Origin: Bacteroidota bacterium
Lineage (GTDB): Bacteria > Bacteroidota > Ignavibacteria > UBA10030
DNA length: 64,000 bases
NCBI GenBank assembly: GCA_021813905.1
Contig: JAKAJH010000009.1
Span: 7,346-71,345 of the forward strand
Direction of reading: 5' to 3'
The position numbers were made by a program, and so were the translations under genes. Below the pieces are notes generated by a model. That model searched no databases and had not been told where the DNA came from. It was given only the letters and a program-made list of their open reading frames with translations. The first letter of the stretch is position 1, and each line of letters opens with the position of its first letter. Positions 13,014 to 52,649 of the stretch are shown piece after piece.

Positions 13014-13032
13014 TTGAATCTGATGCCGCGGT

Positions 13033-13953: not shown

Positions 13954-13967
13954 GAGTCGATCTCACC

Positions 13968-19964: not shown

Positions 19965-20037
19965 GGGGCTGTAGCTCAGCTGGGAGAGCGCTTCGTTCGC
20001 AACGAAGAGGTCGTCGGTTCGAACCCGATCAGCTCCA
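19965..20037 (+). tRNA. tRNA-Ala, anticodon CGC
   Basis: GGGGCTGTAGCTCAGCTGGGAGAGCGC...GGTTCGAACCC cloverleaf. G3:U70 alanine identity pair in the acceptor stem (GGGGCTG/CAGCTCC). Anticodon loop TTCGCAA. Discriminator A. No CCA is encoded. Confidence 0.9.
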
Positions 20038-22364: not shown

Positions 22365-22380
22365 GCGACAGGACATCCGC

Positions 22381-40113: not shown

Positions 40114-40142
40114 TTGCATTTCTGGGTACTAGGCTCTATCTT
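40114..40142 (+). promoter_or_regulatory. Candidate sigma-70-like promoter (TTGCAT -N17- TATCTT) for the 40.2-kb secreted-protein locus
   Basis: TTGCAT at 40114-40119 and TATCTT at 40137-40142, in a locally AT-richer stretch 58 nt upstream of the ATG at 40200. Confidence 0.35.
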
Positions 40143-40199
40143 GGAATCCACGATGGCAGTTGATACAACCTCTTTCGTTCACCGAACGTACTTCGCCTG

Positions 40200-42251
40200 A
40201 TGTCTCTGAAATTCTCCCTGCCCGCGACGGCACTGTGGCTCGTCTGCACCCTTTCGGCTCAGGATGTGCCTCAACTCCCGAAGCGGTCGACTGACGACAA
40301 TACAAAATACACCACGGTCGGCAACATCTCGATCACGGTTACGAACTTTGGCGTGATCGGCAACGGATTCAAGCCGTTCCCCGGTCCACCGTCATTTCAG
40401 TACCCCCGCGGTTCCGGCATCGAACATCTGTTCGTCGGCGGTCTGTGGGTCGGCGCCTCCACACCGACCGGGATTCATGTGACCACCGGCGCGGTGGACA
40501 TTTCGTCGCTCCGGAGCGGTGTATCGGAGGGATTCGAATTTACGACGGGCGTTGATTCGCGGGTCATCGAACGCTCGTCGCTCCTCGACAACCGGTTCTA
40601 CAGTCCGTCGGCGATCAGTCACCAGGACTTTCTGGCCGACTTTACCGACACCAATACGACCAACCCGAACCAGAACAACGAACCGATTCCGAACCACGTG
40701 CCGCTCGGCATCAACGTGCACATGGAATCGTACGCGTTCAACTTCGCGTTCGCGGACAATTTTGTGATCTTCAACTATTGGATCAAGAACGTCAGCGGCG
40801 CCTCGCTCGACAGCGTGTATGTCTCACTGTGGGGCGACATCGTGGTGCGGAACACCAATATCACTCCGCCCACCGTCGGCTCGCCTTTTTACAGCCACGG
40901 GGCGCTGGGATACATCGACACGCTCAATCTCGCCTACGCATACGACTATGACGGCGACGGCGGACTGGCGGACAGTTACGGCGCGTTCAAATTCCTCGGT
41001 TCATCGCCGTACCGGAACACCACGACGTATCAGGTGTGGCAGTTCCGGAATTCGAGCGATCCGACGTATTTCTCTCCCGCGACCGATATTGACAAGTACA
41101 GCAAAATGACGAACGGGCTCCTGCCCAGTCAGGTCACTTCTATCCCGAAACCGAGCAACTTTATGACGTTGCTCTCAGTCGGCCCGTTTTCGCACATCGC
41201 GCCGGGCGATTCGGTGAACGTGGTCTTTGCGCTGATGGCGGCGAAAATGGTGAACTGGAGTGTTCCGAAGCCGGAGGGTCCCGACATCGCGAGCAACCGC
41301 ACGAATCTGAACTTAGCGTCGTCGTGGGCTCAGCGCACATATAACGGTGAAGATCGGAACGGCAACGGGGTGCAGGATTCAAATGAGGTATGGACGGACA
41401 ACGGACGTCCGAAGCGCTACTTCCTGCCGGCTCCACCGGCGGCGCCGCATGTGAAGGTCGTGCCGAATGACAAATCCGTCGAGATCTACTGGGATGATGT
41501 GTCCGAGCGATCCGTGGATCCGATCACAAACCTGAAGGATTTTGAAGGGTATCGCATCTACGGCACGAATGCCGGATTCGACCTGACGGCGTCGCAGAAT
41601 ATCCTCGCGAATCTGGTGATGTTGGGCGAATACGATCGCGCCGATGACGACATCGGATACAATACGGGCTTCGGCGGCATTCGCCTGGCACAGGCGGTGC
41701 AATTTCCGCCCGATACCACGCACTACGTGTATCGGTTCGAGGTGCCGCATGTGCTCAACGGGTGGCAGTACGGTTTTGCCGTGACCGCTTTTGACTCCGG
41801 GGATGCGAGCACGAATCTGCAAAGTCTGGAAAGCAGCAAGCTTCAAACGCTTCAACGGGTGCTTCCCGGCACGCCTCCCGCGAAGGACGCCTCGGTGCAG
41901 CCGGGCGTGTATCCGAATCCGTACTATGCGCACGCGTACTGGGATGGCGGCGTGGAGCGCCAGCGGAAGCTGTATTTCTACAACATTCCGGCGCATGCCG
42001 AGATCCGGGTGTACACGCTGGCGGGCGATCTCGTGGATGTGTTCGAGCATGACGCGGCGACGTACAATGCATCGGATATCCAGTGGTTCCAGACCTACGC
42101 CGACGGCACGCAGCAGCTGGCCGGTGGCGAGCACGCCTGGGATCTGATTACGAAGAATGATCAGGCCGTCGCGACGGGGCTGTATCTGTTTACCGTCAAG
42201 AATCTCGATACGGGCAATATGCAGCGTGGCAAGTTCCTTGTGATCAAGTAG
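40200..42251 (+). CDS. Large secreted hypothetical protein with a divergent T9SS-CTD-like C-terminal domain
   Basis: Signal peptide MSLKFSLPATALWLVCTLSAQ. No catalytic motif recognized. The last ~110 aa (GVYPNPYYAHAYWDG...KLYFYNIPAHAEIRVYTLAGDLVDVFEH...GEHAWDL...ATGLYLFTVKN...GKFLVIK) follow the spacing and consensus of T9SS sorting domains. Confidence 0.55.
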   Translation: MSLKFSLPATALWLVCTLSAQDVPQLPKRSTDDNTKYTTVGNISITVTNFGVIGNGFKPFPGPPSFQYPRGSGIEHLFVGGLWVGASTPTGIHVTTGAVDISSLRSGVSEGFEFTTGVDSRVIERSSLLDNRFYSPSAISHQDFLADFTDTNTTNPNQNNEPIPNHVPLGINVHMESYAFNFAFADNFVIFNYWIKNVSGASLDSVYVSLWGDIVVRNTNITPPTVGSPFYSHGALGYIDTLNLAYAYDYDGDGGLADSYGAFKFLGSSPYRNTTTYQVWQFRNSSDPTYFSPATDIDKYSKMTNGLLPSQVTSIPKPSNFMTLLSVGPFSHIAPGDSVNVVFALMAAKMVNWSVPKPEGPDIASNRTNLNLASSWAQRTYNGEDRNGNGVQDSNEVWTDNGRPKRYFLPAPPAAPHVKVVPNDKSVEIYWDDVSERSVDPITNLKDFEGYRIYGTNAGFDLTASQNILANLVMLGEYDRADDDIGYNTGFGGIRLAQAVQFPPDTTHYVYRFEVPHVLNGWQYGFAVTAFDSGDASTNLQSLESSKLQTLQRVLPGTPPAKDASVQPGVYPNPYYAHAYWDGGVERQRKLYFYNIPAHAEIRVYTLAGDLVDVFEHDAATYNASDIQWFQTYADGTQQLAGGEHAWDLITKNDQAVATGLYLFTVKNLDTGNMQRGKFLVIK

Positions 42252-42285
42252 TCCAACTCAACATCAACCAGAGAGGGAGAGTCCT

Positions 42286-44628
42286 ATGAAACATCGATGG
42301 CTCCAGTTTGCGGTAGCGGTTCTGGTGCTCGCGGGTCTGTCGGTGCCGGCGTCTGCGCAGACGATCGGTCACCCGGCGACGATTCCGCAGCTTCAGACTG
42401 TTCCGATGGATTCACTCTATGCCCTTGACACTCTGCAGGCGGCATCGGCAGGAAAGTACAAGGATAAGTCGCCGTACTGGAACGGCTCCGATTCGAAAGC
42501 GGACACCGTGATCGTGACCGGTGTCGTGATCGTGAAGCCGCGCATTCTGACGTATACGCTGGCGCGCTACAACATCTTCATCCAGGACACGACGACCGGT
42601 CAGCTGTGGGCAGGTCTGAACGTCCTGACGAATGACACATCGACGACCGCCCAGGGTACCGGCATCACGGCGCTCGATAGCGGCATGGTTGTCCGGCTGA
42701 CGGGTCGCGTTACGGAATACGGCAGCCAGAACAACAGCTTGACCGAAATGTTCATGTACAACGTCGGCTTCTTCGAGTCCGTGGTGACGGCGGAAATCCT
42801 GAGCGTCGGCGGCAACCGTCCGAACCCGGTCCCGGTGACGGTGGATAGTTTCGCGGTCGGTACCAAGCCGATGCCGTCGCGCGGAGAGAAGTACGAAGGG
42901 ATGTATGTGACGATTCCGAATGTCACGGTCATCTCCGTCGATGTTTCTTCCGGTCGGTTCACCTTTGCGGACTCGGCGGGAAACCAGATGACGATGTATG
43001 ACGGTTCGGGTTGGTACACATATCGCGGACACAAGATCACCGGTTCGAAGTACTCGGCGCCTCCCGTCGGCACGAAGCTGAAGTACATCCGTGGCGTCGT
43101 CATCGTGCAGACGAAGAGCAACACCTGCGGCGACTATGAAGTCATGCCGTTGTATCCGGGACCGCGTGAGCTTGGAAAAGCGACCTCCTATCCGGGTGAT
43201 GTCGTGATCGATAAGTTTGCCCCGTCGATCACCACGATCCGCCGCAATCCGACACCGCCGAAGTCCACGGACAACGTGATCGTCACGTTCCAGGCGAAGG
43301 ACCTGAACACGAACGGGAATGTGGACAGTGCCTTTGTCGCGGTGCAAAAAGGCCTGAGCGGCGCATGGGTGAAGACGAAGGTGGCGACTCCGTCCTTTGT
43401 TGGCGCGGACACGCTGTACTCCTTCACGGTGGGAACGACACCGGCGGACAGCATCGTCAGTTACTACGTCGAGGCATACTCGGGCGGCATCTACGGCGCA
43501 TCACCGGACCCGGCCATTCCGTACTACTACGTGGTCCGGGATAACGGATACTCCATCTACGACGTGCAATACACGCCGTACAGTAACGGTCTCCCTGGCA
43601 TGCAGTACGACACGCTGACGGTGAAGGGCGTGGTCGTGGCGGATACGTCGGACATCAAAGAGATCCCGAAAAGCGGTGCGCAGGCAAATCGGCCGTCGCT
43701 CTGGATTGCATCCGCTCCTGGAAAGTGGAACGGAGTCTGCGTCTGGGGCGCCAGCGCTTCGGTAGGCGTCGATACGCTGCAGAAGGGCGACAGTGTCTCC
43801 GTGCGCGGTGTCGTGTATGACTACAACTCGCGAACGGTGCTGAAGGTCGTCTCCTGCACGCTGATCCAGCGCGGCGTGCCGGTCCCCGGTCCTGCGACGA
43901 TGAGCATCTCCGGAAAGGGATCGGTGAGCTATCAGATCAGCAATCCTCCGGTGAACGGCGATCCGATCTTCGAGGCCTGGGAAGGCGTGCTCGTTCGCAT
44001 CAACAATCCGTATCTCGTGGTTCGCAATGCGGATGACCTTACGAACGGCAGCAGCTCCTGCTTCGGCGAGTTCCTGATCAGCTCGAGTTCGTATCTCAGC
44101 AATCCGTACGGACTGCGCGTGGATGATAACGGCATCAACAACTTCTACGCGGACACGAATTCGTACTACGCAACAACGAAGTACAACTCGGATCATCCGC
44201 TCACGCCCGGTCTGAAGACCACGCTGATCCCGATCGGGTCAAAGCTGACGTTCCTCCAGGGTATTCTGGATTACTCATACAGCAACTACAAGCTCGAGCC
44301 GCGGACGAATGCGGACTTCGGCACGATCACCAGCGTGGTCCTGCAGGATCCCATGGCGATCGCCCGGACGTTCGAGCTCAGCCAGAACTACCCGAATCCC
44401 TTCAACCCCTCGACGGAGATCCGCTACAGCGTTCCGATGTCCGGCCGGGTATCGCTGAAGGTGTTCAACCTGCTCGGCCAGGTGGTCGAGACGCTTCTCG
44501 ATCGTGACATGGTGGCCGGTTCATACGTCGTGCGGTTCGACGCGTCCCGACTTGCCACCGGCGTGTATTTCTATCAGCTCCGCGCCGGCGATGTGGTCAT
44601 GACGAAGAAGATGGTTCTGATGAAGTAA
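42286..44628 (+). CDS. Large secreted multi-module protein with canonical T9SS type A C-terminal sorting domain
   Basis: Signal peptide MKHRWLQFAVAVLVLAGLSVPASAQ. The body has repeated beta-rich modules (VTGVVIVKP..., VKGVVVADTSD..., VRGVVYDYNSRTVLKV...). The C-terminus NYPNPFNPSTEIRYSVPMSGRVSLKVFNLLGQVVETLLDRDMVAGSYVVRFDASRLATGVYFYQLRAGDVVMTKKMVLMK matches the Por/T9SS sorting domain consensus. Confidence 0.8.
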   Translation: MKHRWLQFAVAVLVLAGLSVPASAQTIGHPATIPQLQTVPMDSLYALDTLQAASAGKYKDKSPYWNGSDSKADTVIVTGVVIVKPRILTYTLARYNIFIQDTTTGQLWAGLNVLTNDTSTTAQGTGITALDSGMVVRLTGRVTEYGSQNNSLTEMFMYNVGFFESVVTAEILSVGGNRPNPVPVTVDSFAVGTKPMPSRGEKYEGMYVTIPNVTVISVDVSSGRFTFADSAGNQMTMYDGSGWYTYRGHKITGSKYSAPPVGTKLKYIRGVVIVQTKSNTCGDYEVMPLYPGPRELGKATSYPGDVVIDKFAPSITTIRRNPTPPKSTDNVIVTFQAKDLNTNGNVDSAFVAVQKGLSGAWVKTKVATPSFVGADTLYSFTVGTTPADSIVSYYVEAYSGGIYGASPDPAIPYYYVVRDNGYSIYDVQYTPYSNGLPGMQYDTLTVKGVVVADTSDIKEIPKSGAQANRPSLWIASAPGKWNGVCVWGASASVGVDTLQKGDSVSVRGVVYDYNSRTVLKVVSCTLIQRGVPVPGPATMSISGKGSVSYQISNPPVNGDPIFEAWEGVLVRINNPYLVVRNADDLTNGSSSCFGEFLISSSSYLSNPYGLRVDDNGINNFYADTNSYYATTKYNSDHPLTPGLKTTLIPIGSKLTFLQGILDYSYSNYKLEPRTNADFGTITSVVLQDPMAIARTFELSQNYPNPFNPSTEIRYSVPMSGRVSLKVFNLLGQVVETLLDRDMVAGSYVVRFDASRLATGVYFYQLRAGDVVMTKKMVLMK

Positions 44629-44641
44629 TTGTTCACCCCGA

Positions 44642-44672
44642 GGGAGGAGAAGGGCCTGTCCCTTCTCCTCCC
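44642..44672 (+). terminator. Perfect 13-bp GC-rich hairpin immediately after the T9SS-cargo gene (terminator/attenuator or RNA-processing stem)
   Basis: GGGAGGAGAAGGG (44642-44654), loop CCTGT, then CCCTTCTCCTCCC (44660-44672). Followed by CGGATATTTCAGG, which is only a weak U-tract. Confidence 0.45.
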
Positions 44673-44693
44673 CGGATATTTCAGGATACTCTC

Positions 44694-46076
44694 GTGCGGT
44701 TCCTCTCGTCACTCGCGATCCTCATCGTCCTTCTTGTCAGCGGATGCTCGGAGCATTTCCCGAATCAGCCGCTCGGCAACCTTCCGCCGGAGACATTCCT
44801 GGCGCTGCGTCCCGACAGCACGCTGCGCCGGACGGCCAGCCAGCAGGATATTCACTGGTGGGGCGAGGATCCGGACGGATTCGTTGCCGGCTATTACTTT
44901 TCATTCGACAGCACGCACTGGACGTTCACGACGGCGAATGACAGCCTCTTCGGTCTCAAGCTGAATACGACCGATACCACATACTCGTTCTTTGTCAAGG
45001 CGGTGGACAACGAAGGAGCCGAGGATCCGACTCCCGCGTCGCTCCGGTACCCGATCATGAATACACCGCCGACGGTCAGCTTCGTCCTGAAATCCGATGT
45101 GCCCGACACGACGTATCCGGTTGCCAGCTTCCAGTGGGTGGGACTTGATATCGACGGGGATGAGACCATCACGAGCTTCTGGTACGCCCTCGACGATACC
45201 TCCAATCCGAACAACTGGAAGAGCGTTCCGGGATACGCGCGCAGCGTGACGTTGTACAAAGCCGACGGTCTGGTGGAAGGCGATCACACCTTCTATCTCC
45301 GCGCGCGCGATGTGGCCGGTGCCTGGAGCAAGACAATCCAGATGCCCGATACGGTGAAGCGGACGTGGCATGTGCGCGAGCCGAAGGGCGCCTTCCTGAT
45401 CATCGACGATTACCAGCCGGCCGATGCCGCCGCCGGATACTACGCGACGATGTTCGACACGCTGACGGTCAACGGACGGCATCTTGGCAGTCAGGATGTG
45501 TGGGATATCAAAAAGGGTGCGTCCCCGACGAAGCGCGGTGATCTTGTCCCGGCGCTTATCAATCCGACGTTCATCGAAACCCTGAAACTGTTCAAGTATG
45601 TGTTCTGGTATGCGGATAACAACCCGAGCCTCGAAATCGCGCAGGCGTCTCTGGGCGCGTTTACACGCGCCGGCGGGAAGGTTCTGTTCTCCAGCTCGTT
45701 CCCGGAGCTGAGCAGCGGACAGGGCGGCGTCGGCGATTTCGCACCGATCGATAATACCGAGCCGTCGTATTTTACCACGATCCTGATGTCGGGGGACACG
45801 CTCCAGGCGGTGGATCCGATCTATCCCACGCTGGTACGGGACGCCAATCCCACGATCTATCTCTTTCCACGCGGACTTCTGCCGAAGGTCAATGCACGCG
45901 TGATCTATCAGATGCAGTCCTCATCCCGATGGAGCGGGCAGCCCGTGATGGGCGTGCAGGACGGTGATTCTCCGAGCTTTGTACTGATGGCAGTGCTGCT
46001 CCACCGGTTCGGTCCTCCGGCGAGCGCGGCGGAGTTCTTCCGCACGGTATTCGGGAAGGAGTTTGGCGCGCAATGA
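44694..46076 (+). CDS. Hypothetical lipoprotein (460 aa)
   Basis: Lipobox LLVSGC. No recognizable catalytic motif. ATGA overlap with the downstream TonB-dependent-receptor-like gene. Confidence 0.6.
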   Translation: MRFLSSLAILIVLLVSGCSEHFPNQPLGNLPPETFLALRPDSTLRRTASQQDIHWWGEDPDGFVAGYYFSFDSTHWTFTTANDSLFGLKLNTTDTTYSFFVKAVDNEGAEDPTPASLRYPIMNTPPTVSFVLKSDVPDTTYPVASFQWVGLDIDGDETITSFWYALDDTSNPNNWKSVPGYARSVTLYKADGLVEGDHTFYLRARDVAGAWSKTIQMPDTVKRTWHVREPKGAFLIIDDYQPADAAAGYYATMFDTLTVNGRHLGSQDVWDIKKGASPTKRGDLVPALINPTFIETLKLFKYVFWYADNNPSLEIAQASLGAFTRAGGKVLFSSSFPELSSGQGGVGDFAPIDNTEPSYFTTILMSGDTLQAVDPIYPTLVRDANPTIYLFPRGLLPKVNARVIYQMQSSSRWSGQPVMGVQDGDSPSFVLMAVLLHRFGPPASAAEFFRTVFGKEFGAQ

Positions 46077-48883
46077 CCCGGAGAATCGGCAGAACGCTCC
46101 TCCTGGTGCTCGCGCTGGCGTTCATGATGCCGGCACTGTCGGCGCAGGAAAAAGGCAGCATCAAAGGACTTGTGAAAGACGCCAAGACCAAGGAAGGTCT
46201 TCCGGTCGTCAACGTCAAAGTGAAGGGGACGTACTATGGCGCTGTGACGGACATGGACGGCAATTACATCATTGCGAACGTCAATCCCGGCAGCTACGTG
46301 GTCGAGTTCACGCTTCTCGGCTATACGGCCGTTCAAGTGACGGACGTGCGCGTCCAGGCGGGCAAGTCGACGGAGCTGAATCAGAACCTCTCCGAGACAG
46401 TGCTCTCGCTCGGACAGGAAGTCGTCGTGGTCGGCGAGAAACCGCTGTTGAACGTGGAAGAAACCTCGAGCAAGCGCTCGGTGACCGCGGATGACCTCAA
46501 GGCCACCGCCGTCGTAAACGTGAAGGATGTGGTGGGTCAGCAGGTGGGCGTCGTCGAAGCCGATAACGAGGTGCATATCCGCGGCGGTCGTGCGAGCGAA
46601 AATGCATACTTGCTTGACGGGATCTCGGTGCAGGATCCGTTGGCAGGCACGGGCTTCGGGCTCCAACTCAGCGCGGATGCCGTCCAGCAGATCGAGGTGA
46701 TCACGGGCGGATACAATGCGGAGTATGGACAGGCAACGTCGGGCGTCGTGAACGTGCAATTGAAGGACGGATCCGACCGGTTCGAGGGAAGCGTCGGGGT
46801 GAAGCGGGATAACCTGGGCATCTTCCCGGAAACCTTCAAGCCCTTCAACTCGGAGAGCTACGAGGGATCGCTCAGCGGTCCAATTCCAGTTTCGGCGATC
46901 ACCGATCTTGTGGGTCTCGGCGATATCGGCACCATGAGCTTCTTCACGAGCGCCTATGCGGGCTTTACGGACGGCTTCATGGGCAAGACCGCGCATCGGC
47001 TGAATTCATCGACATTCTACGGGACGCGGTTCACCCCTCGCGAAGAGAACAATCTCTTCTTCCTCGGGAAAGTGACGTGGAAGATCACGCCGCTGGTTCG
47101 CCTGGCATATTCCTACACGCATTCGGTGGCGATCAACCAGAATTCCCAGTCATTGCAGACCAACCTGGAATACGTCGAGCCCAGTCCCGGATTTCAGTAC
47201 GAGTTCGAAAACATCCTCGACAACGCAAACACGTACACGCACAACAACCAGATTCATACGCTGTCGTTGACGCACACGCTGTCGAACTCCATGTTCTATG
47301 AGCTGCGGCTGTCGCACTTCTTCACGAATCTCCGCGCGGATGCAAACGGAACGCCATACAACCAGTACCGCGAGCCGAAGGACATCGTCACGTTCCCGCT
47401 CTCGTATTACAATCTTGGCCACGACACGGTCGGCGTGATTCCGGGCGACGGTTTCTACGATTTCGGCAATGCGTTCACGTGGCACGATCACTTCGTGGCC
47501 GAGAATACGGTGAAGTTCGATCTGACAAAGAACTTCTCCGACAAGAATAAGTTCAAGACCGGTGTCGAGGCGACGTTCCAGGAGATGCAGAACGTCGATA
47601 TCTATGAGCCGTGGATCGGGACACTCGGACTGAACAACGACATCTATCACGTCTACCCGGCGTTCGGTGCGCTCTACGCACAGGATAACATCACGTTCAG
47701 CGGCATGATCCTGAACTTCGGCCTGCGGTTCGATTACTGGTTCCCGGGCAAGTATGTGGATGATGCGGTGAACAATCCGGCGGTCATCACCATCCCCGAT
47801 CAGGTGCGGCAGCACTATCTTGATCATACCTATACGTTGTTCGGGCGCCACTGGAAGGGCCGCCTCAGCCCGCGCCTCGGCATCTCGCATCCGGTCTCGG
47901 ACAATCAGATGCTGTATTTCTCGTACGGCCATTTTTCAAAGCGGCCGAAGCCTCAATTTCTCTATGCGAAGCTCAGTCCGAGCTCGGCCCAATCGACCTT
48001 CCAGAAGTTCGGCAATCCGGATCTGAATCCGGAGACGACCGTGGCCTATGAGCTCGGCCTCCAGACGCAGTTCACGAATGACGACGTGCTCAGCGTGACG
48101 GTGTACTACAAGGACATCTTTGATTACGTGTCGACACGCACGGCCCGGATCACCTCGGCCCGACTTGCCAGTACGAATTACGTCACGTACGTGAACCAGG
48201 ACTACGCGCGCTCGCGCGGTGTCGAGGTCGAATACCGGAAGCGAATCGGCCGCTGGTTCCGGGGGACGGCCTCCGGCTCGTATTCAATCACGACGGGCAA
48301 GAGCTCCTCGGCCGATCAGGGACTGCTCATCGCGCGCGGGCTGGAAGATGAGTCGGTGAAAGAGAATTACGTGGTTTGGGATCGTCCGCTCCAGTTCACG
48401 GTCACGTCAACGGTGACGGTGGAGAAGGGGAAAGGGCTGTTCGGCTTTGGCAAGAACATCCTGGACAACCTTTCGGTCTACGCACGGGCGTTCTATGAAT
48501 CCGGCAAGCGGTATACGCCGTACATCTACGACGGCGTGCTGACGAGCAACGGCCGGCCTGACTACATTCAGGACCGGAATAACCTGCTGGGCGGCATCGG
48601 TGAAAATTGGTTCTGGATCGACATGAACATCGAGAAGTACTTCGATGTGGCCGGTCTGGAATTCACCTTCTCGGTCCAGGTGAAGAACATCCTGAACAAC
48701 AGGAACTCCACGATTATCAATCCGGTGACCGGTCGAGCCTATGAGTACGGCGATCCCACGCCCACCAACTGGAACGATCCGCTCTATCCGTCATTGCAGG
48801 CTCCGGTGTCTCCATTTCCGTACAATCCCGCGCGCTATCTCGCGCCGCGGGAGATGATCCTTGGACTTTCGGTGAAATTCTGA
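46073..48883 (+). CDS. TonB-dependent-receptor-like outer-membrane protein with N-terminal carboxypeptidase-regulatory-like domain
   Basis: Signal peptide. CarboxypepD_reg-like segment (GSIKGLVKDAKTKEGLPVVNVKVKG...TDMDGNYIIANVNPGSYVVEFTLLGY). Plug region (NVEETSSKRSVTADDLKA...HIRGGRASENAYLLDGISVQDPL). Long beta-barrel ending in F (LGLSVKF). Confidence 0.85.
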   Translation: MTRRIGRTLLLVLALAFMMPALSAQEKGSIKGLVKDAKTKEGLPVVNVKVKGTYYGAVTDMDGNYIIANVNPGSYVVEFTLLGYTAVQVTDVRVQAGKSTELNQNLSETVLSLGQEVVVVGEKPLLNVEETSSKRSVTADDLKATAVVNVKDVVGQQVGVVEADNEVHIRGGRASENAYLLDGISVQDPLAGTGFGLQLSADAVQQIEVITGGYNAEYGQATSGVVNVQLKDGSDRFEGSVGVKRDNLGIFPETFKPFNSESYEGSLSGPIPVSAITDLVGLGDIGTMSFFTSAYAGFTDGFMGKTAHRLNSSTFYGTRFTPREENNLFFLGKVTWKITPLVRLAYSYTHSVAINQNSQSLQTNLEYVEPSPGFQYEFENILDNANTYTHNNQIHTLSLTHTLSNSMFYELRLSHFFTNLRADANGTPYNQYREPKDIVTFPLSYYNLGHDTVGVIPGDGFYDFGNAFTWHDHFVAENTVKFDLTKNFSDKNKFKTGVEATFQEMQNVDIYEPWIGTLGLNNDIYHVYPAFGALYAQDNITFSGMILNFGLRFDYWFPGKYVDDAVNNPAVITIPDQVRQHYLDHTYTLFGRHWKGRLSPRLGISHPVSDNQMLYFSYGHFSKRPKPQFLYAKLSPSSAQSTFQKFGNPDLNPETTVAYELGLQTQFTNDDVLSVTVYYKDIFDYVSTRTARITSARLASTNYVTYVNQDYARSRGVEVEYRKRIGRWFRGTASGSYSITTGKSSSADQGLLIARGLEDESVKENYVVWDRPLQFTVTSTVTVEKGKGLFGFGKNILDNLSVYARAFYESGKRYTPYIYDGVLTSNGRPDYIQDRNNLLGGIGENWFWIDMNIEKYFDVAGLEFTFSVQVKNILNNRNSTIINPVTGRAYEYGDPTPTNWNDPLYPSLQAPVSPFPYNPARYLAPREMILGLSVKF

Positions 48884-49869
48884 TGCGCCGCACACTTCTC
48901 ATCGTATTCATTGTCGCGCTGATCGTCGGATGTGTCCCGGCGCAGGCGCAGATCGTTCCTGTTCTCGGCGCGCAGCGGGCCGGTACCTCGACCGCCCAGT
49001 TCCTCAAGATCGCTGTTGGTGCACGGGCGGCGGCAATGGGAGAAAGCTTTGTGGCCGTGGCGAATGACGCGTCGGCGCTCTTCTGGAACCCGGCGGGCAT
49101 CACCCAGTTCACGCAGACGGAGGTGATCCTGGCGCACACGACATGGGTGGTGGATGTGCAGCACGAATTTGCCGGCCTGGTGTATCACCTCACTCCCGAC
49201 GATGCCGTCGGCGTGTCGGTGACATCCGTGCACACCGATGACATGCAGGTGACAACGGAGCTTCAGCCCCGGGGGACAGGAGACTACTTCAGCTACGGCG
49301 ACCTCGCTATCGGAGTCACGTACGGCCGCCGCATGACGAATCAGTTCAGCTTCGGAGCGACCGTTCGATATCTTGAAGAGACGATGGCCTCGCTGAAGAT
49401 GCGCGGGGTGGTGCTCGATTTCGGAACGTATTACTGGACCGGATTAGGAACGTCCCGGTTCTCGGCGGTGGTGACGAATTTCGGCAATCAGATCGGACCG
49501 ACCGGCACGGCACCGCAGGTCGGAGGAGGTACCGTCACGTCGTTCCAGCAGTACCCGCCGCCGACGATGTTCAAATTCGGTTTCGCGCTCGATCCGATCA
49601 AAGATGAGTCCAACATTCTGACGACATCGATCCAGTTGAATCACCCCAACGACAACTCCGAGAACGTCGGCCTCGGTGTTGAATACGGATGGATGAATGC
49701 GTTCTTCCTGCGGGGGGGATATAAACTGAATGTCGAGGAACAGGCGCTTTCCTTCGGTGCCGGCGTCGCGGCTTCACTGGGCATCGCCCATGTGGCCGTC
49801 GACTACGCCTATGCCTCGTTTACGAATCTCGGTCCGACCCATCGGATCTCAATGCTGGTGACGTTGTGA
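48883..49869 (+). CDS. PorV/PorQ-like (FadL-like) outer-membrane beta-barrel protein
   Basis: Signal peptide. N-terminal motif GARAAAMGESFVAVANDASALFWNPAGI, as I recall for the PorV/PorQ family. Alternating beta-strand pattern. C-terminal hydrophobic/aromatic end. Start overlaps the upstream stop by 1 nt (TGATG). Confidence 0.55.
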   Translation: MRRTLLIVFIVALIVGCVPAQAQIVPVLGAQRAGTSTAQFLKIAVGARAAAMGESFVAVANDASALFWNPAGITQFTQTEVILAHTTWVVDVQHEFAGLVYHLTPDDAVGVSVTSVHTDDMQVTTELQPRGTGDYFSYGDLAIGVTYGRRMTNQFSFGATVRYLEETMASLKMRGVVLDFGTYYWTGLGTSRFSAVVTNFGNQIGPTGTAPQVGGGTVTSFQQYPPPTMFKFGFALDPIKDESNILTTSIQLNHPNDNSENVGLGVEYGWMNAFFLRGGYKLNVEEQALSFGAGVAASLGIAHVAVDYAYASFTNLGPTHRISMLVTL

Positions 49870-50963
49870 GACAATTCGCGCCCCTTGCTCTGCTGCTTTT
49901 GATGCTGGCCGCCTGCCAGGAATATCGCTTCCCTGTGGAAACGCTGCCTCAGGGCGGTCAACGGACCGGCCAGATCGGCGACACGCTCTATGTTCAGCAA
50001 TATCCGAATTGGGAGGGATTCAACCAACCCCAGGCCATTGCTGTTGGATTTGAACCCCTGCTCTATGTCGCCGACACGGACAACGACCGGGTCGTCATGC
50101 TCGATCTGGCCGGACGCGTCATCGGCTATTCACCGATGATCAAGCATCCGGTGGCAATCGCGGAGGATCGGAGACTGCAGCTGCTCGTCTGCGCCGAATT
50201 CGATACGCTTCTGGCGGGACAGAGCCATCCGACCACCTTCGGAGCGATCTATCGGATTGACCTTGTGGCCACGGGCCATGACATCACGACCGCCACTCCG
50301 GTCCGCGTGTTCACGGAGTTGAGTGACTCGAGCCGGCGGTACAGCGCCGTCGCGACGATGTACGACAATTCATACTACGTGACGCGGGTAGGGCCGAAGA
50401 ACGCTTTGACGAGCTTTGACCGGGATAACGCCATTCTGCTGTTTGCGAAGAATGATTCGCTCATCACCCCGGTGACGGCAAACTTCTCTCCGGATGGCAC
50501 CGGCCTCCTGTCGATCCATGCCGCCACCGGCATCGCCACGATGCCGACGGGCAAGAGCGTGGAATTCGTCTTTTCCCAGGTGGAATCGAACTCCGGGATC
50601 ACTCCGCTGTACAAAGTACAATGGATCCGGCTCGTCTCGGAAGGACAGACGACCAACTACCTGTCGAAGTTCTATCCGAGCGTGGATGGCGATATAGATC
50701 TGCTGCGCATCAACCGGTTCACCCATCCGACGGGCGTCACGCTTGATCCGTCCGGGAATCTCTACGTGACCGATGCAGGAACCGACAGTCTCTATCGCTT
50801 CACGCCGCGGGGTGTGGAAGCGTACTCCTTCGGTGGGACCGGATCGGGGGAACGGCAGTTCCGGCAACCGGCCGGGGTGGCGTACTTCGACAAAACAGTG
50901 TATGTGGCGGACAAGGGAAACAACCGCATTGTTCGCTTCAAACTTTCGACAGATCTGCAGTGA
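49866..50963 (+). CDS. NHL-repeat beta-propeller lipoprotein
   Basis: Lipobox LLMLAAC. NHL repeats LYVADTDNDRVVMLD, LYVTDAGTDSLYRFT, VYVADKGNNRIVRFK. GTG start in a GTGA overlap with the upstream gene. Confidence 0.75.
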   Translation: MRQFAPLALLLLMLAACQEYRFPVETLPQGGQRTGQIGDTLYVQQYPNWEGFNQPQAIAVGFEPLLYVADTDNDRVVMLDLAGRVIGYSPMIKHPVAIAEDRRLQLLVCAEFDTLLAGQSHPTTFGAIYRIDLVATGHDITTATPVRVFTELSDSSRRYSAVATMYDNSYYVTRVGPKNALTSFDRDNAILLFAKNDSLITPVTANFSPDGTGLLSIHAATGIATMPTGKSVEFVFSQVESNSGITPLYKVQWIRLVSEGQTTNYLSKFYPSVDGDIDLLRINRFTHPTGVTLDPSGNLYVTDAGTDSLYRFTPRGVEAYSFGGTGSGERQFRQPAGVAYFDKTVYVADKGNNRIVRFKLSTDLQ

Positions 50964-50967
50964 CGTG

Positions 50968-50995
50968 TGCCGGCCCTGCGAGTGCCGGGCCGGCA
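50968..50995. terminator. GC-rich hairpin between the convergent NHL gene (+) and ecfA2 (−); candidate bidirectional terminator
   Basis: TGCCGGCCC (50968-50976) pairs with GGGCCGGCA (50987-50995). The flanking U-tracts are poor. Confidence 0.4.
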
Positions 50996-51003
50996 TGCCT
51001 TCG

Positions 51004-51771
51004 TTACGCTGATTCCTCCGTCGTACCTCGTTCAAGCATTTCGATCACACGCTGCGGCCAGGAGAATCGTACACCGGCTGCGCGTACCTGCGTCTGGTAC
51101 AGCCGCAATTCCTGAGGCGGTCCCGCGACCATCACTCCGCCCTTGTTGAGAACCAGCACCTGCGTCGCCAGCGGCAGCAGCGTTTCTACGTCGTGCGTGG
51201 CAACGACGAGCGTCCTTCCACGGTCCCGGAGCTGCTGAAAGGCAGTCAACGCCGTCCGGCGCTGTCCGTACGAGAGTCCGGCCGTCGGTTCGTCGAACGC
51301 GAGGACCGGCGTTTCCATCGCAACCGCAGAAGCCAATGTCAGAAGCTTCCGATACGAGGGATGAAGATCGTACGGATGGGTGGTTCGGTGCGCCAGCAAT
51401 CCGAAGAGTTCCAGCGCATGTGCCGCGGAACGGTCAGGATCAGCGCGGCGGAGATTGTGCGGACCGTACTGAACCTCGTCGATGACCGTGTGACGGAAGA
51501 TCTGATCGGCCGCACGCTGAAAGGTCACCGCGACGTGTCCGGCAAGGACTGAGACGGGATGCTCACTGGTGCGCAATCCATTCACCCGGATCGATCCCGA
51601 GGTCGGCTGCAGGAGTCCGTTGAGGAGCTTCAGAAGCGTGCTTTTGCCGGCGCCGTTGTGCCCGAGGATCAGCAGACAGGATCCTGGCGGCGCGGACAGA
51701 TCGATGGCGTGCAGCGCGCTTGCCGTGCATCCGGGGTACGTGAACGATACGCTGGAGATCTCGAGGATCAC
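51004..51771 (-). CDS. ecfA2: ECF transporter ATPase component A' (second ABC ATPase)
   Basis: Walker A GHNGAGKST, signature motif, Walker B LAFDEPTAGL. GTG start at 51771-51769 overlaps the TGA stop of ecfA1 (GTGA). Confidence 0.85.
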   Translation of the reverse strand: MILEISSVSFTYPGCTASALHAIDLSAPPGSCLLILGHNGAGKSTLLKLLNGLLQPTSGSIRVNGLRTSEHPVSVLAGHVAVTFQRAADQIFRHTVIDEVQYGPHNLRRADPDRSAAHALELFGLLAHRTTHPYDLHPSYRKLLTLASAVAMETPVLAFDEPTAGLSYGQRRTALTAFQQLRDRGRTLVVATHDVETLLPLATQVLVLNKGGVMVAGPPQELRLYQTQVRAAGVRFSWPQRVIEMLERGTTEESA

Positions 51772-52649
51772 GTCATACCCGCCAGTCGCCGGAGCCGGCG
51801 GACCAGTGGATCGCCGGCTGGGGCACGTTCGAGACGCCGAAGGGCCGTGGTCCACGGTTCGGTCGGCAGCATGTCGCAGTACAGCGATCCGCTCCGGATA
51901 AGATCGGCGGGTGATCCGGTGAAACGAACACCGCCGGCGTCGAACACGCAAACGGTATCCGCACATCGTACGGCAAGATCAAGCGTCGTGTCCGTGAACA
52001 TGATGGTCGACCGGTGCGCCAGACGACGCAACAGGGATGCGAGCGCGATTGCAGACGCCGGATCCAGAGCGCTCGCCGGTTCGTCGAGCAGGAGCACAGA
52101 TGGTCCTGTGGCGATAGCACTTGCCAGTGCGACCTTCTGAATCTCTCCACCCGAAAGAGAACGAAGCGTCCGATCACGCAGATGAGGAATGCCGAGCAAC
52201 CGGAGACTCTCTTCCAGATGATGCTCTGCGTTTTCACGCGCGACACCGGCATGACGCAATCCGAGCAGTATCTCTTCCTGTACAGTGTCCGTCAGACCGG
52301 AGATCTGAACGGCCGGATCCTGAAGCAGCATGGAAACGTGCGGAAATTCCGGGTGTGAGGGGAACGGGGTGAACGCATGACCGAGCACCGCGACGCTTCC
52401 GGACGATGAGGCACCGGTCCCGTGGATCCCGAGCAGCCCCGCGATGGCAAACAGGAGCGTGGTCTTTCCGGCTTCGCTGGGGCCGAGGATGGCCATCACA
52501 GACCCTTCGGGCACGCGCAGAGATACGTGTTCAAGCGCAGGCCGGGAGCTGTGCGCGTACGTGTAGGACAGATCTCGTATGTCTATCGCTGGATCCACGC
52601 GAGGAGTCTCCAGGCAACAGTGATAAAGCTGAGCGACAGCAAGGGCCAC
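51768..52649 (-). CDS. ecfA1: ECF transporter ATPase component A (first ABC ATPase)
   Basis: Walker A GPSEAGKTT, LSGGEIQKVALASAI signature, Walker B LLLDEPASALD. The true start may lie downstream of 52649, because the 5' end overlaps ecfT by 67 nt. Confidence 0.85.
   Translation of the reverse strand: MALAVAQLYHCCLETPRVDPAIDIRDLSYTYAHSSRPALEHVSLRVPEGSVMAILGPSEAGKTTLLFAIAGLLGIHGTGASSSGSVAVLGHAFTPFPSHPEFPHVSMLLQDPAVQISGLTDTVQEEILLGLRHAGVARENAEHHLEESLRLLGIPHLRDRTLRSLSGGEIQKVALASAIATGPSVLLLDEPASALDPASAIALASLLRRLAHRSTIMFTDTTLDLAVRCADTVCVFDAGGVRFTGSPADLIRSGSLYCDMLPTEPWTTALRRLERAPAGDPLVRRLRRLAGMT

What the first reader, a model, noticed from the sequence alone, without database searches (positions are those of the whole stretch)
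40114..50995. Six-gene outer-membrane locus: two T9SS-CTD cargo proteins, lipoprotein, TonB-dependent-receptor-like barrel, PorV-like barrel, NHL lipoprotein
All six genes are co-directional. The last four (44694–50963) are joined by overlapping stop/start codons (ATGA at 46073–46076, TGATG at 48881–48885, GTGA at 49866–49869), which implies strict translational coupling. Every product is exported: four carry signal peptides and three of those have lipoboxes. Both large upstream proteins end in T9SS-type sorting domains, and a PorV/PorQ-like barrel is encoded in the same operon. PorV-family proteins shuttle CTD cargo. No hydrolase, peptidase or transporter signature is recognizable in the 683-, 780- or 460-aa proteins. 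This does not look like a standard SusC/SusD polysaccharide-utilization locus: there is no SusD and no glycoside hydrolase. It also does not look like a known T9SS core cluster. I interpret it as a dedicated outer-membrane secretion-and-anchoring or uptake module for two novel surface proteins.
Basis: partly seen in the sequence, partly recalled or inferred. Interest (0 to 1): 0.85.

Follow-up and report, generated by a model that had tools for sequence, protein, structure and literature searches.

The report
Conserved six-gene outer-membrane capture-and-import module
This is a real, previously undescribed six-gene set, conserved across several deep branches of the Bacteroidota-related (FCB) bacteria, that pairs a TonB-powered outer-membrane importer and a PorV-like barrel with two lipoproteins and two type IX-secreted surface proteins. 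It most likely captures and imports an external polymer, possibly nucleic acid.

Summary
All six + strand genes and the three stop/start overlaps exist as described.

**Confirmed identities**
- P4 is a TonB-dependent transporter with a CarboxypepD_reg domain, a plug and a barrel.
- P5 is a PorV/PorQ-family barrel, but it is not PorV, PorQ or PorV2.
- P6 is an NHL lipoprotein.
- P2 carries a canonical type A T9SS sorting domain (CTD).

**Corrections**
- All six have signal peptides.
- Only P3 and P6 are conserved lipoproteins.
- P1's CTD is atypical and is seen only by profile-profile comparison.
- A conserved strong hairpin separates P1-P2 from the tightly coupled P3-P6.

**New findings**
- The six-gene set recurs in about 60 species-level MAGs of Ignavibacteria-like Bacteroidota, Calditrichota, KSB1 and Fermentibacteria. 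It survives rearrangement, and fusions occur (P1+P3+CTD; P3+beta-propeller).
- P2 is a nuclease-less copy of the non-catalytic part of ExeM/NucH nucleases.
- Related loci recruit CTD-bearing nucleases, phosphoesterases, a 5'-nucleotidase and proteases, but no glycoside hydrolase.

**Best reading (about 0.4):** a SusD-less, T9SS-assembled surface capture and TonB-dependent import complex, possibly for extracellular nucleic acids.

**Rival readings:** a T9SS attachment accessory, glycan uptake, or transformation.

**Novelty:** a new variant of known kinds.

The parts
40200..42251 (+). P1: SPI signal peptide (cleavage before Gln), N-terminal galactose-mutarotase-like beta-supersandwich (about 30-380), acidic Ca-loop-like NGEDRNGNG, FN3-like domain (about 415-560), and an atypical T9SS CTD-like sandwich with a conserved insertion (about 565-683).
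42286..44628 (+). P2: SPI signal peptide, two ExeM/NucH-type non-catalytic modules (OB-fold/LTD-like; about 25-300 and 431-690) around an Ig-like domain, and a canonical type A T9SS CTD (702-777). It has no nuclease domain.
   Evidence: Por_Secre_tail E 1e-8, TIGR04183 at 40.2 bits (cut-off 23), and NF033681 ExeM_NucH E 1.7e-12 over model positions 30-216. Among 50 orthologs, 50 have the CTD, 49 match ExeM_NucH, 24 the OB-fold PF01336, 11 LTD and 16 CBM_56. None has Exo_endo_phos.
44638..44675 (+). Strong stem-loop in the P2-P3 intergenic gap. It is a putative attenuator, terminator or mRNA-processing element that separates P1-P2 from P3-P6.
   Evidence: RNAfold dG is -32.4 kcal/mol. Hairpins of -15 to -37 kcal/mol per 45 nt lie in the same gap in about 40 orthologous loci. 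No T-tract follows, so the consensus terminator scan does not call it.
44694..46076 (+). P3: lipoprotein (conserved lipobox, Cys18) with two Ig/FN3-like sandwiches (about 30-230) and a C-terminal class-I glutamine-amidotransferase-like/ThuA-like domain. The only conserved Cys is the lipobox one, so the domain is non-catalytic.
46073..48883 (+). P4: TonB-dependent transporter with an N-terminal CarboxypepD_reg domain (28-110), a TonB-box-like EVVVVGEKPLL motif (115-125), a plug (130-224), a 22-strand-type barrel and a C-terminal Phe.
   Evidence: PF13715 at 61.4 bits, PF07715 at 44.2 bits and PF00593 at 94.9 bits are all above cut-off. The closest solved plug is the colicin I receptor. Mean identity over 64 orthologs is 0.61, and the TonB-box region scores 0.68.
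48883..49869 (+). P5: PorV/PorQ-family 14-strand-type outer-membrane barrel, SPI-processed with a mature N-terminus at Gln. It is a distinct subfamily.
   Evidence: NF033709 scores 216.7 bits (cut-off 90). PorQ scores 92 (cut-off 220), PorV 88 (cut-off 250) and PorV2 78 (cut-off 325), all below cut-off. The only solved relative is F. johnsoniae PorV 6h3i_F, E 6e-5. The Cys17 'lipobox' is not conserved.
49866..50963 (+). P6: lipoprotein (conserved lipobox) with an NHL-repeat beta-propeller. Acidic residues follow the lipid Cys (C-x-E-D/E), which resembles the Bacteroidota surface-export signal.
   Evidence: NHL PF01436 E 7e-16. The lipobox is conserved in 40/56 orthologs, and the post-Cys motif is visible in the alignment.
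50965..50998 (+). GC-rich stem-loop directly after the P6 stop codon. It is the likely end of the transcription unit, and the next gene is convergent.
   Evidence: RNAfold dG is -28.0 kcal/mol. The downstream ORF 51004-51966 lies on the - strand and is an ABC ATPase.

Best explanation
The six genes encode one outer-membrane apparatus that captures an external polymer at the cell surface and imports its breakdown products with TonB energy.

**Shown**
- P4 is a TonB-dependent transporter with an N-terminal extension domain, a TonB-box-like motif and a plug.
- P5 is a PorV/PorQ-family barrel.
- P3 and P6 are lipoproteins.
- P2 is a type A T9SS substrate, and P1 is probably one.
- The six co-occur as a set across phylum-level distances.

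**Inferred**
- P1 and P2 cross the outer membrane through the T9SS. P5 then holds them at the surface, much as PorV and PorQ hold PorU and PorZ, next to P4.
- P6 (an NHL propeller with an acidic post-Cys motif), and perhaps P3, sit on P4 as lid or binding lipoproteins. This would resemble the way SusD, BtuG or DdbD cap their transporters.
- P1's supersandwich and P3's Ig plus GATase-like module act together outside the cell.

**Substrate sub-claim (weaker, about 0.25-0.3)**
The polymer is extracellular nucleic acid or another phosphodiester polymer. P2 would bind it through ExeM/NucH-type OB/LTD modules. T9SS-secreted nucleases and phosphoesterases, encoded in or beside the cluster in other lineages and elsewhere in this genome, would cut it. 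P4 would import the products.
For: **Domain identities:**

**Synteny:** next to P3, where the contig leaves room, P4 is present in 64/68 loci, P5 in 59/63, P6 in 55/62, P2 in 61/66 and P1 in 48/55. These loci come from MAGs of Ignavibacteria-like Bacteroidota, SZUA-365, Calditrichota, KSB1 and Fermentibacteria.

**Coupling:** the P3-P4, P4-P5 and P5-P6 gaps have medians of 0-2 nt.

**The set survives rearrangement:** L091 reads 5'-nucleotidase, P1, P3::BNR-propeller, P4, P5, P6, P2.

**Fusions**
- P0343 (L089) combines the P1 supersandwich, P3 and a type A CTD.
- At least 7 distant P3 relatives carry a C-terminal BNR/Ycf48-like propeller. The three whose contigs were read (P0265, P0269, P0278) are followed by a large gene. 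That gene is a P4-like TBDT in L090 and L091. In the P0265 contig it is cut off and unannotated.

**Transporter features:** the TonB-box-like motif and the plug are conserved.

**P2:** 49 of 50 P2 orthologs match the non-catalytic part of ExeM/NucH. 24 match the OB-fold and 11 match LTD.

**Accessory genes**
- The 31 CTD-bearing ORFs in or beside the cluster include 5 EEP proteins (4 matching ExeM/NucH), 3 NucT-like PLD nucleases, 1 AcpA/PLC phosphoesterase, 12 M4 and 2 S8 peptidases, and no glycoside hydrolase.
- L088 has an EEP-CTD gene upstream of P1.

**Precedents**
- DdbC/DdbD and Riemerella RA0C_RS04915/04920 pair a CarboxypepD_reg-type TBDT with an OB-fold DNA-binding partner and nucleases (bioRxiv 10.1101/2025.03.18.642099; PMC8459023).
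- In Bacteroidota BAM, the FadL-family barrel BamG is bound to another barrel and holds a surface lipoprotein (PMC12578637).
Against: - No nuclease or other hydrolase is encoded in this window's locus.
- None of the six proteins matches DUF5689, the DdbD family, at E <= 0.1.
- Homology of P4 to DdbC could not be tested.
- P2 orthologs are acidic (median pI about 5), so charge gives no support for DNA binding.
- 14 of the 31 accessory CTD proteins are peptidases. 12 of these belong to one clade.
- P1's fold is otherwise associated with carbohydrate enzymes, and 16 of 50 P2 orthologs hit CBM_56.
- P4 is 61% identical on average across phyla. This is unusually high for a nutrient transporter and would also fit a housekeeping machine.
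- P3 has basic residues (S-K-R) after its lipid Cys, which does not look like a surface-export signal.
- Binding of the P1 or P2 CTD to P5, and contact between P5 and P4, are inferred only.
- A few genomes split the set.
Confidence: 0.4

Rival explanations
1. T9SS accessory or attachment module. In this reading P4 is a PorF-like TonB-receptor-like T9SS outer-membrane protein, P5 is a PorQ-like anchor, and P1 is a PorZ-like CTD-retaining partner whose carbohydrate-type supersandwich presents a glycolipid. The module would serve surface attachment of T9SS cargo in FCB lineages outside Bacteroidia, not nutrient import.
For: - P5 is in the PorV/PorQ family.
- P1's CTD-like domain is its most conserved part and carries a conserved insertion. 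PorU and PorZ also keep their CTDs.
- P1 has a sugar-enzyme-type fold.
- P4, P5 and P1 are very highly conserved across phyla, as expected of a machine.
- PorF of P. gingivalis is a TonB-receptor plug-domain protein needed for late T9SS steps, and its role is unknown (PMC12704123).
- T9SS cargo genes cluster around the locus.
Against: - P5 scores far below the PorQ and PorV equivalog cut-offs.
- The weak PorZ hit of P1 (E 0.008) covers only the generic CTD, and P2 orthologs hit PorZ and PorU tails as well.
- P1 has no propellers and no PorZ architecture.
- P2's nuclease-type modules and the bias of accessory genes towards nucleases and phosphoesterases are not explained.
- No T9SS core gene lies nearby.
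- Homology of P4 to PorF was not testable here.
Confidence: 0.2
2. SusD-less glycan-utilization locus. P1 (supersandwich) and P2 (CBM-like domains) bind a polysaccharide at the surface, and P4 imports oligosaccharides.
For: - P1's N-domain resembles the N-domains of GH94, GH15, GH65 and GH116 and also aldose epimerases.
- 16 of 50 P2 orthologs hit CBM_56.
- P3's GATase-like fold recurs in GH42 and ThuA-like sugar enzymes.
- TBDT-plus-lipoprotein loci for glycans are the rule in Bacteroidota.
Against: - No glycoside hydrolase, lyase or esterase is found in the window locus or among the 31 CTD-bearing accessory proteins of related loci.
- The matched GH N-domains are non-catalytic.
- There is no SusD, and P4 falls far below the SusC/RagA cut-off.
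Confidence: 0.12
3. Outer-membrane DNA uptake for natural transformation, as proposed for Riemerella RA0C_RS04915/04920, rather than for nutrition.
For: - The same components support this reading as support the nucleic-acid reading: a CarboxypepD_reg-TBDT plus an OB-fold surface protein.
- In Riemerella such a pair is essential for transformation (PMC8459023).
Against: - No competence genes (comEC, dprA, comF) lie in the window or the loci examined.
- Co-located nucleases, phosphoesterases and a 5'-nucleotidase argue for degradation.
- The DUF5689 family is not matched.
Confidence: 0.06
4. Chance juxtaposition of unrelated exported-protein genes.
For: The flanking genes are unrelated housekeeping genes.
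Against: - Order and strand are conserved in dozens of species across several phyla.
- Stop and start codons overlap.
- Gene fusions occur between members.
Confidence: 0.01

Closest known systems
DNA-utilization loci ddbABCDEF of Bacteroides thetaiotaomicron and the related Riemerella anatipestifer natural-transformation pair RA0C_RS04915/RA0C_RS04920 (bioRxiv 10.1101/2025.03.18.642099; PMC8459023)
   Same: An outer-membrane TonB-dependent-type transporter with a carboxypeptidase-regulatory-like domain is encoded next to a surface protein built from OB-folds. Secreted nucleases are encoded with it; here they appear only in related loci. The overall organisation is PUL-like but has no SusD.
   Different: The binding partner there is a DUF5689 lipoprotein. 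Here it is a T9SS-secreted protein with ExeM/NucH-type modules, and DUF5689 is not matched. The Ddb loci have no PorV-family barrel, no NHL lipoprotein and no P1 or P3 families. The window locus itself has no nuclease. Homology between P4 and DdbC was not tested.
SusC/SusD polysaccharide-utilization loci and other Bacteroidota TBDT-lipoprotein pairs (RagAB; BtuB-BtuG and XusA-XusB with beta-propeller lid lipoproteins; the last two from my own knowledge)
   Same: A TonB-dependent transporter with an N-terminal extension is translationally coupled to lipoprotein genes. A beta-propeller lipoprotein (P6) is a plausible lid. Surface proteins for substrate capture are encoded alongside.
   Different: There is no SusD-family protein. 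P4 scores 61 bits against the 368-bit cut-off of the SusC/RagA model. Two components reach the surface through the T9SS rather than as lipoproteins. A PorV-family barrel belongs to the operon.
T9SS carrier/anchor pairs: PorV-PorU and PorQ-PorZ of the attachment complex, and PorP/SprF-like proteins encoded next to their type B cargo
   Same: A PorV/PorQ-family barrel is encoded with CTD proteins. One of these (P1) has a highly conserved, atypical CTD, in line with the retained CTDs of PorU and PorZ.
   Different: P5 is below the cut-offs of the PorV, PorQ and PorV2 models. P1 and P2 share no passenger architecture with PorU or PorZ. A TonB-dependent transporter and two lipoproteins are translationally coupled to the barrel.
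Bacteroidota BAM complex with BamG (PMC12578637)
   Same: It shows that a 14-strand FadL/PorV-type barrel can be a permanent structural partner of a larger barrel and can hold a surface protein with its extracellular loops. That is the role proposed here for P5 beside P4.
   Different: BamG belongs to the FadL/Toluene_X branch and partners BamA. No BamA or BamD is involved here.
PorF (PG0534) of Porphyromonas gingivalis (PMC12704123)
   Same: It is a TonB-receptor plug-domain outer-membrane protein functionally tied to late steps of type IX secretion.
   Different: Its function is unknown, it is not known to be encoded with a PorV paralog, and its relationship to P4 was not tested.

Membership tests
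T9SS type A sorting-domain (CTD) proteins (TIGR04183 / PF18962) | C-terminal about 75-aa sorting domain scoring above the curated cut-off: P2 | tested here: met
   TIGR04183 scores 40.2 bits (cut-off 23) and PF18962 scores 35.6 bits (cut-off 27), over residues 702-777. All 50 orthologs match.
T9SS type A sorting-domain (CTD) proteins (TIGR04183 / PF18962) | C-terminal sorting domain: P1 | tested here: inconclusive
   There is no hit to PF18962, TIGR04183 or a locus-derived CTD HMM. hhalign against the CTD profile gives 92% probability, E 6e-7, aligned to the very C-terminus with an insertion of about 20 aa. The AF2 model shows a 7-strand sandwich.
T9SS type A sorting-domain (CTD) proteins | Actual secretion through the T9SS and the fate of the CTD (cleaved or retained) | not testable with these tools
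   This needs proteomics or genetics.
PorV/PorQ family (NF033709) | Full-length match above the family cut-off: P5 | tested here: met
   216.7 bits against a cut-off of 90, covering 35-326 of 328 aa.
PorV proper (NF033710), PorQ proper (NF033711), PorV2 (NF052325) | Equivalog-level score | tested here: not met
   88.4 bits against 250, 92.1 against 220, and 77.6 against 325. F. johnsoniae PorV 6h3i_F aligns over the N-terminal half only, E 6e-5.
TonB-dependent transporters | Plug domain plus 22-strand barrel domain | tested here: met
   PF07715 scores 44.2 bits (cut-off 23.9) and PF00593 scores 94.9 bits (cut-off 27).
TonB-dependent transporters | TonB box upstream of the plug | tested here: met
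   The motif EVVVVGEKPLL (residues 115-125) lies between the CarboxypepD_reg domain and the plug. The region is 0.68 identical over 64 orthologs. That it matches the TonB-box consensus is my own judgement.
TonB-dependent transporters | TonB/ExbBD-dependent substrate import | not testable with these tools
   This needs an experiment.
SusC/SusD polysaccharide-utilization locus | SusC/RagA-family transporter (TIGR04056) | tested here: not met
   61 bits against a cut-off of 368.25, and only the N-terminal 205 residues match.
SusC/SusD polysaccharide-utilization locus | Adjacent SusD-family lipoprotein and carbohydrate-active enzymes | tested here: not met
   No SusD or GH family is found in P1-P6 or in the flanking genes. 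None of the 31 accessory CTD proteins in related loci has one either.
Ddb-type DNA-utilization / Riemerella DNA-uptake locus | DUF5689 (PF18942) substrate-binding lipoprotein next to the transporter | tested here: not met
   None of P1-P6 hits PF18942 at E <= 0.1. None of the 50 P2 orthologs does at E <= 0.01. One accessory CTD protein in L076 hits it weakly, E 3.9e-5.
Ddb-type DNA-utilization / Riemerella DNA-uptake locus | Secreted nucleases encoded in the locus | tested here: not met
   There are none in the window locus. They are present beside the cluster in some relatives: EEP in L068, L070, L079 and L088, and NucT-like PLD in L064, L075 and L077.
Ddb-type DNA-utilization / Riemerella DNA-uptake locus | Transporter homologous to DdbC / RA0C_RS04915 | not tested
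The only shared feature established is the CarboxypepD_reg domain (PMC8459023).
ExeM/NucH extracellular nucleases (NF033681) | Full-length match including the endonuclease/exonuclease/phosphatase catalytic domain: P2 | tested here: not met
   47 bits against a cut-off of 300, and only model positions 30-216 of 546 match. No PF03372 hit occurs in any of the 50 orthologs.
NHL-repeat beta-propeller proteins | NHL repeats above cut-off: P6 | tested here: met
   PF01436 scores 57.8 bits (cut-off 20), E 7e-16.

The most novel reading that the evidence does not exclude
A PorV-family barrel (P5) permanently docks T9SS-delivered proteins onto a TonB-dependent transporter. P1 would dock through its atypical, insertion-bearing CTD, and P2 would be docked as well. 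This would create a T9SS-assembled 'utilisome' ancestral to the deep FCB lineages. In it, the two unannotated families P1 (supersandwich) and P3 (Ig plus GATase-like), which are fused in some organisms, would form a new extracellular binding or catalytic unit for nucleic-acid-type polymers. It would be the first case of type IX secretion being used to build a nutrient importer, and it would give a function to non-canonical PorV paralogs.
Probability: 0.25. Interest if true: 0.85.

Novelty: new variant of a known kind. Interest (0 to 1): 0.62.

Why it matters
- **Uptake without SusD.** Ignavibacteria-like Bacteroidota, Calditrichota, KSB1 and Fermentibacteria are abundant polymer degraders in sediments, soils and bioreactors. 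I found no SusD in any locus I examined. How they couple surface capture to uptake is, to my knowledge, not known.
- **A candidate answer.** This six-gene set is highly conserved in those lineages and contains two large protein families with no annotation. P1 has more than 2,300 homologs. P3 has more than 1,000 clusters at 50% identity. It is therefore a concrete candidate for that missing link.
- **A link between two systems.** If the proposed mechanism holds, type IX secretion and TonB-dependent import, so far studied separately, would be connected. PorV paralogs, and possibly PorF-like proteins, would gain a role. The recent discovery of DNA-utilization loci in gut Bacteroidales would extend to environmental phyla, with consequences for extracellular DNA and phosphorus turnover.

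Tried and rejected
- **Sequence search of P1 and P2 against PDB chains.** Nothing useful came back.
- **A CTD HMM built from P2-like tails.** It did not detect P1. The profile-profile comparison was needed instead.
- **The weak PorZ hit of P1.** I rejected it as evidence of a PorZ relationship, because P2 orthologs hit the PorZ and PorU tails too. It reflects generic CTD similarity only.
- **CTD more conserved than passenger.** I considered this as evidence for a retained CTD in P1. P2 shows the same pattern, so the argument is weak.
- **Charge test for DNA binding.** The P2 family has a median pI of about 5, which gives no support.
- **Consensus promoter and terminator scan.** It was uninformative: 1 promoter-like site against 4.3 expected, and the big hairpins lack T-tracts.
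- **Rfam.** There is no RNA family in the locus.
- **Literature searches for the cluster.** Combinations of PorV, TonB-dependent, Ignavibacteria, NHL, Calditrichaeota and KSB1 found no description of it. 'PorV2' led only to the T9SS translocon paper, which is not relevant.
- **Exceptional loci (L054, L066, L061, L045, L030).** Their neighbours are housekeeping genes and say nothing about function.
- **AFDB fold search.** The library was unavailable.
- **Lookups of distant P3 relatives.** L093 has P3 alone and L094 is truncated, so they added little.
- **Unused resource.** The third large homolog search was not run. Its top-120 output would have returned only close orthologs.

Full report
**1. 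Observation**

The region holds six + strand ORFs:

| Name | Coordinates | Length |
|---|---|---|
| P1 | 40200-42251 | 683 aa |
| P2 | 42286-44628 | 780 aa |
| P3 | 44694-46076 | 460 aa |
| P4 | 46073-48883 | 936 aa |
| P5 | 48883-49869 | 328 aa |
| P6 | 49866-50963 | 365 aa |

- The flanks are unrelated housekeeping genes. Upstream lie acyl-CoA carboxyltransferase and a LysM/SLT transglycosylase. Downstream lie a convergent ABC ATPase and 2-oxoacid dehydrogenase genes.
- P3 of the window is identical to a protein encoded in MAG GCA_027400455.1 and on a 583-kb ENA metagenome contig.

**2. Identities of the six proteins**

- **P4.** It carries CarboxypepD_reg, Plug and TonB-dependent-receptor barrel domains, all above Pfam cut-offs. 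It is far below the SusC/RagA and siderophore or heme receptor cut-offs of NCBIfam.
- **P5.** It matches the generic PorV/PorQ family model at 216.7 bits (cut-off 90). It falls well below the PorV, PorQ and PorV2 equivalogs. Its only solved relative is F. johnsoniae PorV, E 6e-5, over the N-terminal half.
- **P6.** It has NHL repeats.
- **P2.**
  - It has a canonical type A CTD.
  - It also matches positions 30-216 of the 546-position ExeM/NucH nuclease model, E 1.7e-12.
  - Of 50 P2 orthologs, all have the CTD, 49 match ExeM/NucH, 24 match the OB-fold PF01336, 11 match LTD and 16 match CBM_56. None has the endonuclease/exonuclease/phosphatase domain.
  - P2 is therefore a nuclease-less copy of the non-catalytic modules of this class of extracellular nucleases.
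- **P1.**
  - It has no Pfam or NCBIfam family. It has more than 2,326 homologs, all 'hypothetical'.
  - An FN3-like domain and a C-terminal 7-strand sandwich follow.
  - That C-terminal domain is missed by the standard CTD models and by a CTD HMM I built from the loci. It aligns to a type A CTD profile with 92% probability, to the last residue, with a conserved insertion of about 20 residues.
- **P3.**
  - It has no family either. Its family spans 1,086 clusters at 50% identity.
  - The only conserved Cys is the lipobox one, so the domain is non-catalytic.

**3. Export signals and transcription units**

- All six proteins have signal peptides.
- The lipobox Cys is conserved only in P3 (59/80) and P6 (40/56). 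The 'IVGC' of P5 is conserved in 4/61.
- P1, P2, P4 and P5 are all predicted to be cleaved in front of a Gln.
- P6 orthologs carry acidic residues after the lipid Cys, which resembles the Bacteroidota surface-export signal. P3 orthologs carry S-K-R. What this implies for topology is inference.
- The P3-P4, P4-P5 and P5-P6 gaps have medians of 0-2 nt across loci.
- The P2-P3 gap has a median of 103 nt. In the window it contains a hairpin of -32.4 kcal/mol at 44638-44675. Comparably strong hairpins lie in that gap in about 40 orthologous loci.
- A second hairpin (-28 kcal/mol) follows P6.
- The locus therefore reads as P1-P2 | hairpin | P3-P4-P5-P6.

**4. Conservation of the set**

- **Scan.** A scan of one genome per GTDB species, using P3 motifs, returned 120 relatives. 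The 80 loci kept are all MAGs. They are labelled Ignavibacteria/Ignavibacteriales, unclassified Bacteroidota including SZUA-365, Calditrichota/Caldithrix, KSB1, Fermentibacteria and others.
- **Synteny.** Where the contig leaves room, the genes lie next to P3 in the same order and on the same strand. P4 is present in 64/68 loci, P5 in 59/63, P6 in 55/62, P2 in 61/66 and P1 in 48/55.
- **Identity to the window proteins.** The means are 0.61 (P4), 0.57 (P5), 0.54 (P1), 0.48 (P3 and P6) and 0.34 (P2). The TonB-box-like EVVVVGEKPLL motif is conserved.
- **Exceptions.** L045 and L030 have the quartet without P1-P2. L061 and L041 have P1-P2-P3 without P4-P6. Four loci have P3 alone, in housekeeping contexts.
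- **Rearrangement.** L091 reads 5'-nucleotidase, P1, P3 fused to a BNR propeller, P4, P5, P6, P2.
- **Fusions.**
  - At least seven distant P3 relatives carry a C-terminal BNR/Ycf48-like propeller. The three whose contigs were read are followed by a large gene. That gene is a P4-like TBDT in L090 and L091. In the P0265 contig it is cut off and unannotated.
  - One protein (P0343, L089 9001-12159) fuses the P1 supersandwich, 39.5% identical over residues 1-407, to the P3 module and a type A CTD.
  - These fusions link P1 with P3, and P3 with a propeller. They also place the P3 module outside the cell in at least that organism.

**5. Accessory genes**

I found 31 non-core ORFs with a C-terminal CTD in or beside the clusters. 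Their domains are:

| Accessory protein | Count | Note |
|---|---|---|
| M4 peptidase | 12 | one clade, inserted between P2 and P3 |
| EEP protein | 5 | 4 match ExeM/NucH |
| PLD-type protein matching nuclease NucT | 3 | |
| S8 peptidase | 2 | |
| AcpA/PLC-type phosphoesterase | 1 | |
| Glycoside hydrolase | 0 | |

L088 adds an EEP-CTD gene upstream of P1, and L091 adds a 5'-nucleotidase.

**6. Mechanism**

The best-supported reading is a surface capture and TonB-dependent import complex.

*Shown*
- The domain identities.
- The translational coupling.
- The conserved TonB-box-like motif and plug.
- The co-inheritance of the six genes and the fusions between them.

*Inferred*
- The T9SS exports P1 and P2.
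- P5 holds them beside P4, by analogy with PorV-PorU, PorQ-PorZ and PorP-type B cargo, and with BamG holding BamH beside BamA (PMC12578637).
- P6, and perhaps P3, cap P4.
- P1 and P3 act together.

*Substrate guess*

The substrate guess is nucleic acid or another phosphodiester polymer. It rests on three things:
- P2's ExeM/NucH-type OB/LTD modules.
- The repeated, apparently independent recruitment of nucleases, phosphoesterases and a nucleotidase to the cluster.
- The precedent of DdbC/DdbD and the Riemerella pair (bioRxiv 10.1101/2025.03.18.642099; PMC8459023).

*Against the guess*
- This locus has no nuclease.
- DUF5689 is not matched.
- P2 orthologs are acidic.
- Peptidases are as frequent as nucleases among the accessory genes.
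- P1's fold and the CBM_56 hits point towards sugars.

*Rivals*
- **T9SS attachment-type accessory module (0.2).** P4 would be PorF-like and P5 PorQ-like, as discussed in PMC12704123.
- **SusD-less glycan locus (0.12).**
- **DNA uptake for transformation (0.06).**
- **Chance juxtaposition.** This is excluded.

**7. Comparison and novelty**

- The locus fails the membership tests for a SusC/SusD PUL, for PorV/PorQ/PorV2 proper, for ExeM/NucH nucleases and for Ddb-type loci (no DUF5689).
- It passes those for the TBDT, PorV/PorQ-family, NHL and type A CTD (P2) families.
- I found no paper describing the cluster.
- It is best filed as a new variant of known kinds. It combines a TBDT-lipoprotein uptake locus with a T9SS cargo-carrier pair. 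It contains two large unannotated protein families.

**8. Limits**

- All relatives are MAGs, and no cultured host was identified.
- Whole genomes could not be inspected for canonical T9SS genes.
- No multimer prediction was possible.
- The AFDB fold library was unavailable.

Noticed in passing
window 44638-44675; same gap in about 40 related loci (e.g. L057, L020, L014): A very stable hairpin (-32.4 kcal/mol in the window) lies between P2 and P3. Hairpins of similar strength, though not necessarily of similar sequence, are conserved at this position across lineages. No T-tract follows. It may set the ratio of P1/P2 to P3-P6 expression, or it may mark an mRNA processing site.
   Followed up: partly
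window 40200-40270, 42286-42365, 46073-46150, 48883-48955: P1, P2, P4 and P5 all have predicted signal-peptidase I sites immediately before a Gln (…SA|Q, …QA|Q). This holds in their orthologs too. It fits the N-terminal pyroglutamate habit described for Bacteroidota exported proteins (from my own knowledge).
   Followed up: partly
L089 9001-12159 (protein P0343): A single 1052-aa T9SS substrate fuses a P1-like supersandwich, a P3-like Ig plus GATase-like module and a type A CTD. Next to it lies a 1300-aa FGE-sulfatase/FN3 protein. On the other strand lies a CarboxypepD_reg-Plug protein with a DUF4249 partner.
   Followed up: partly
L091 4610-5050 and 6191-7738: Just upstream of a rearranged copy of the cluster lie a cytidine/dCMP deaminase-family gene (opposite strand) and a Metallophos plus 5'-nucleotidase gene. 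This is reminiscent of the deaminated-nucleobase output of the Bacteroides ddb pathway, but it could be coincidence.
   Followed up: no
L045 6211-9849; L041 11918-17146: A 1212-aa ORF with no Pfam match sits directly upstream of a P3-P6 quartet that lacks P1-P2. In L041 a 1742-aa CTD-bearing ORF follows P3 where P4-P6 are missing. They may be replacements for the missing members.
   Followed up: no
window 10956-15989: Three consecutive + strand genes lie here: a 685-aa protein matching PF16949 (ABC_tran_2, 'putative ATP-binding cassette'), a 306-aa TPR protein, and a 673-aa protein with TPR/YfiO-like and periplasmic-binding-protein domains. Together they look like an uncharacterised envelope-associated trio.
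   Followed up: no
window 4198-5427 (- strand) and 5894-8368 (+): A DUF6600 protein and a GH31 glycosidase are the only carbohydrate-active gene context seen in the window. They lie 32 kb from the locus.
   Followed up: no
window 19965-20038 and 20289-20389: tRNA-Ala(CGC) and the small SRP RNA lie side by side upstream of RNase E/G. The 754-aa ORF at 20523-22787 on the - strand is antisense to the RNase E/G gene. It has no family hit and is probably a high-GC artefact.
   Followed up: yes
window 27369-28016: A LolA homolog lies directly after ftsK and overlaps the next gene, an LPG_synthase_TM-family membrane protein. LolA has been linked to T9SS and gliding in Bacteroidota (PMC11885536, title and abstract only).
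   Followed up: no
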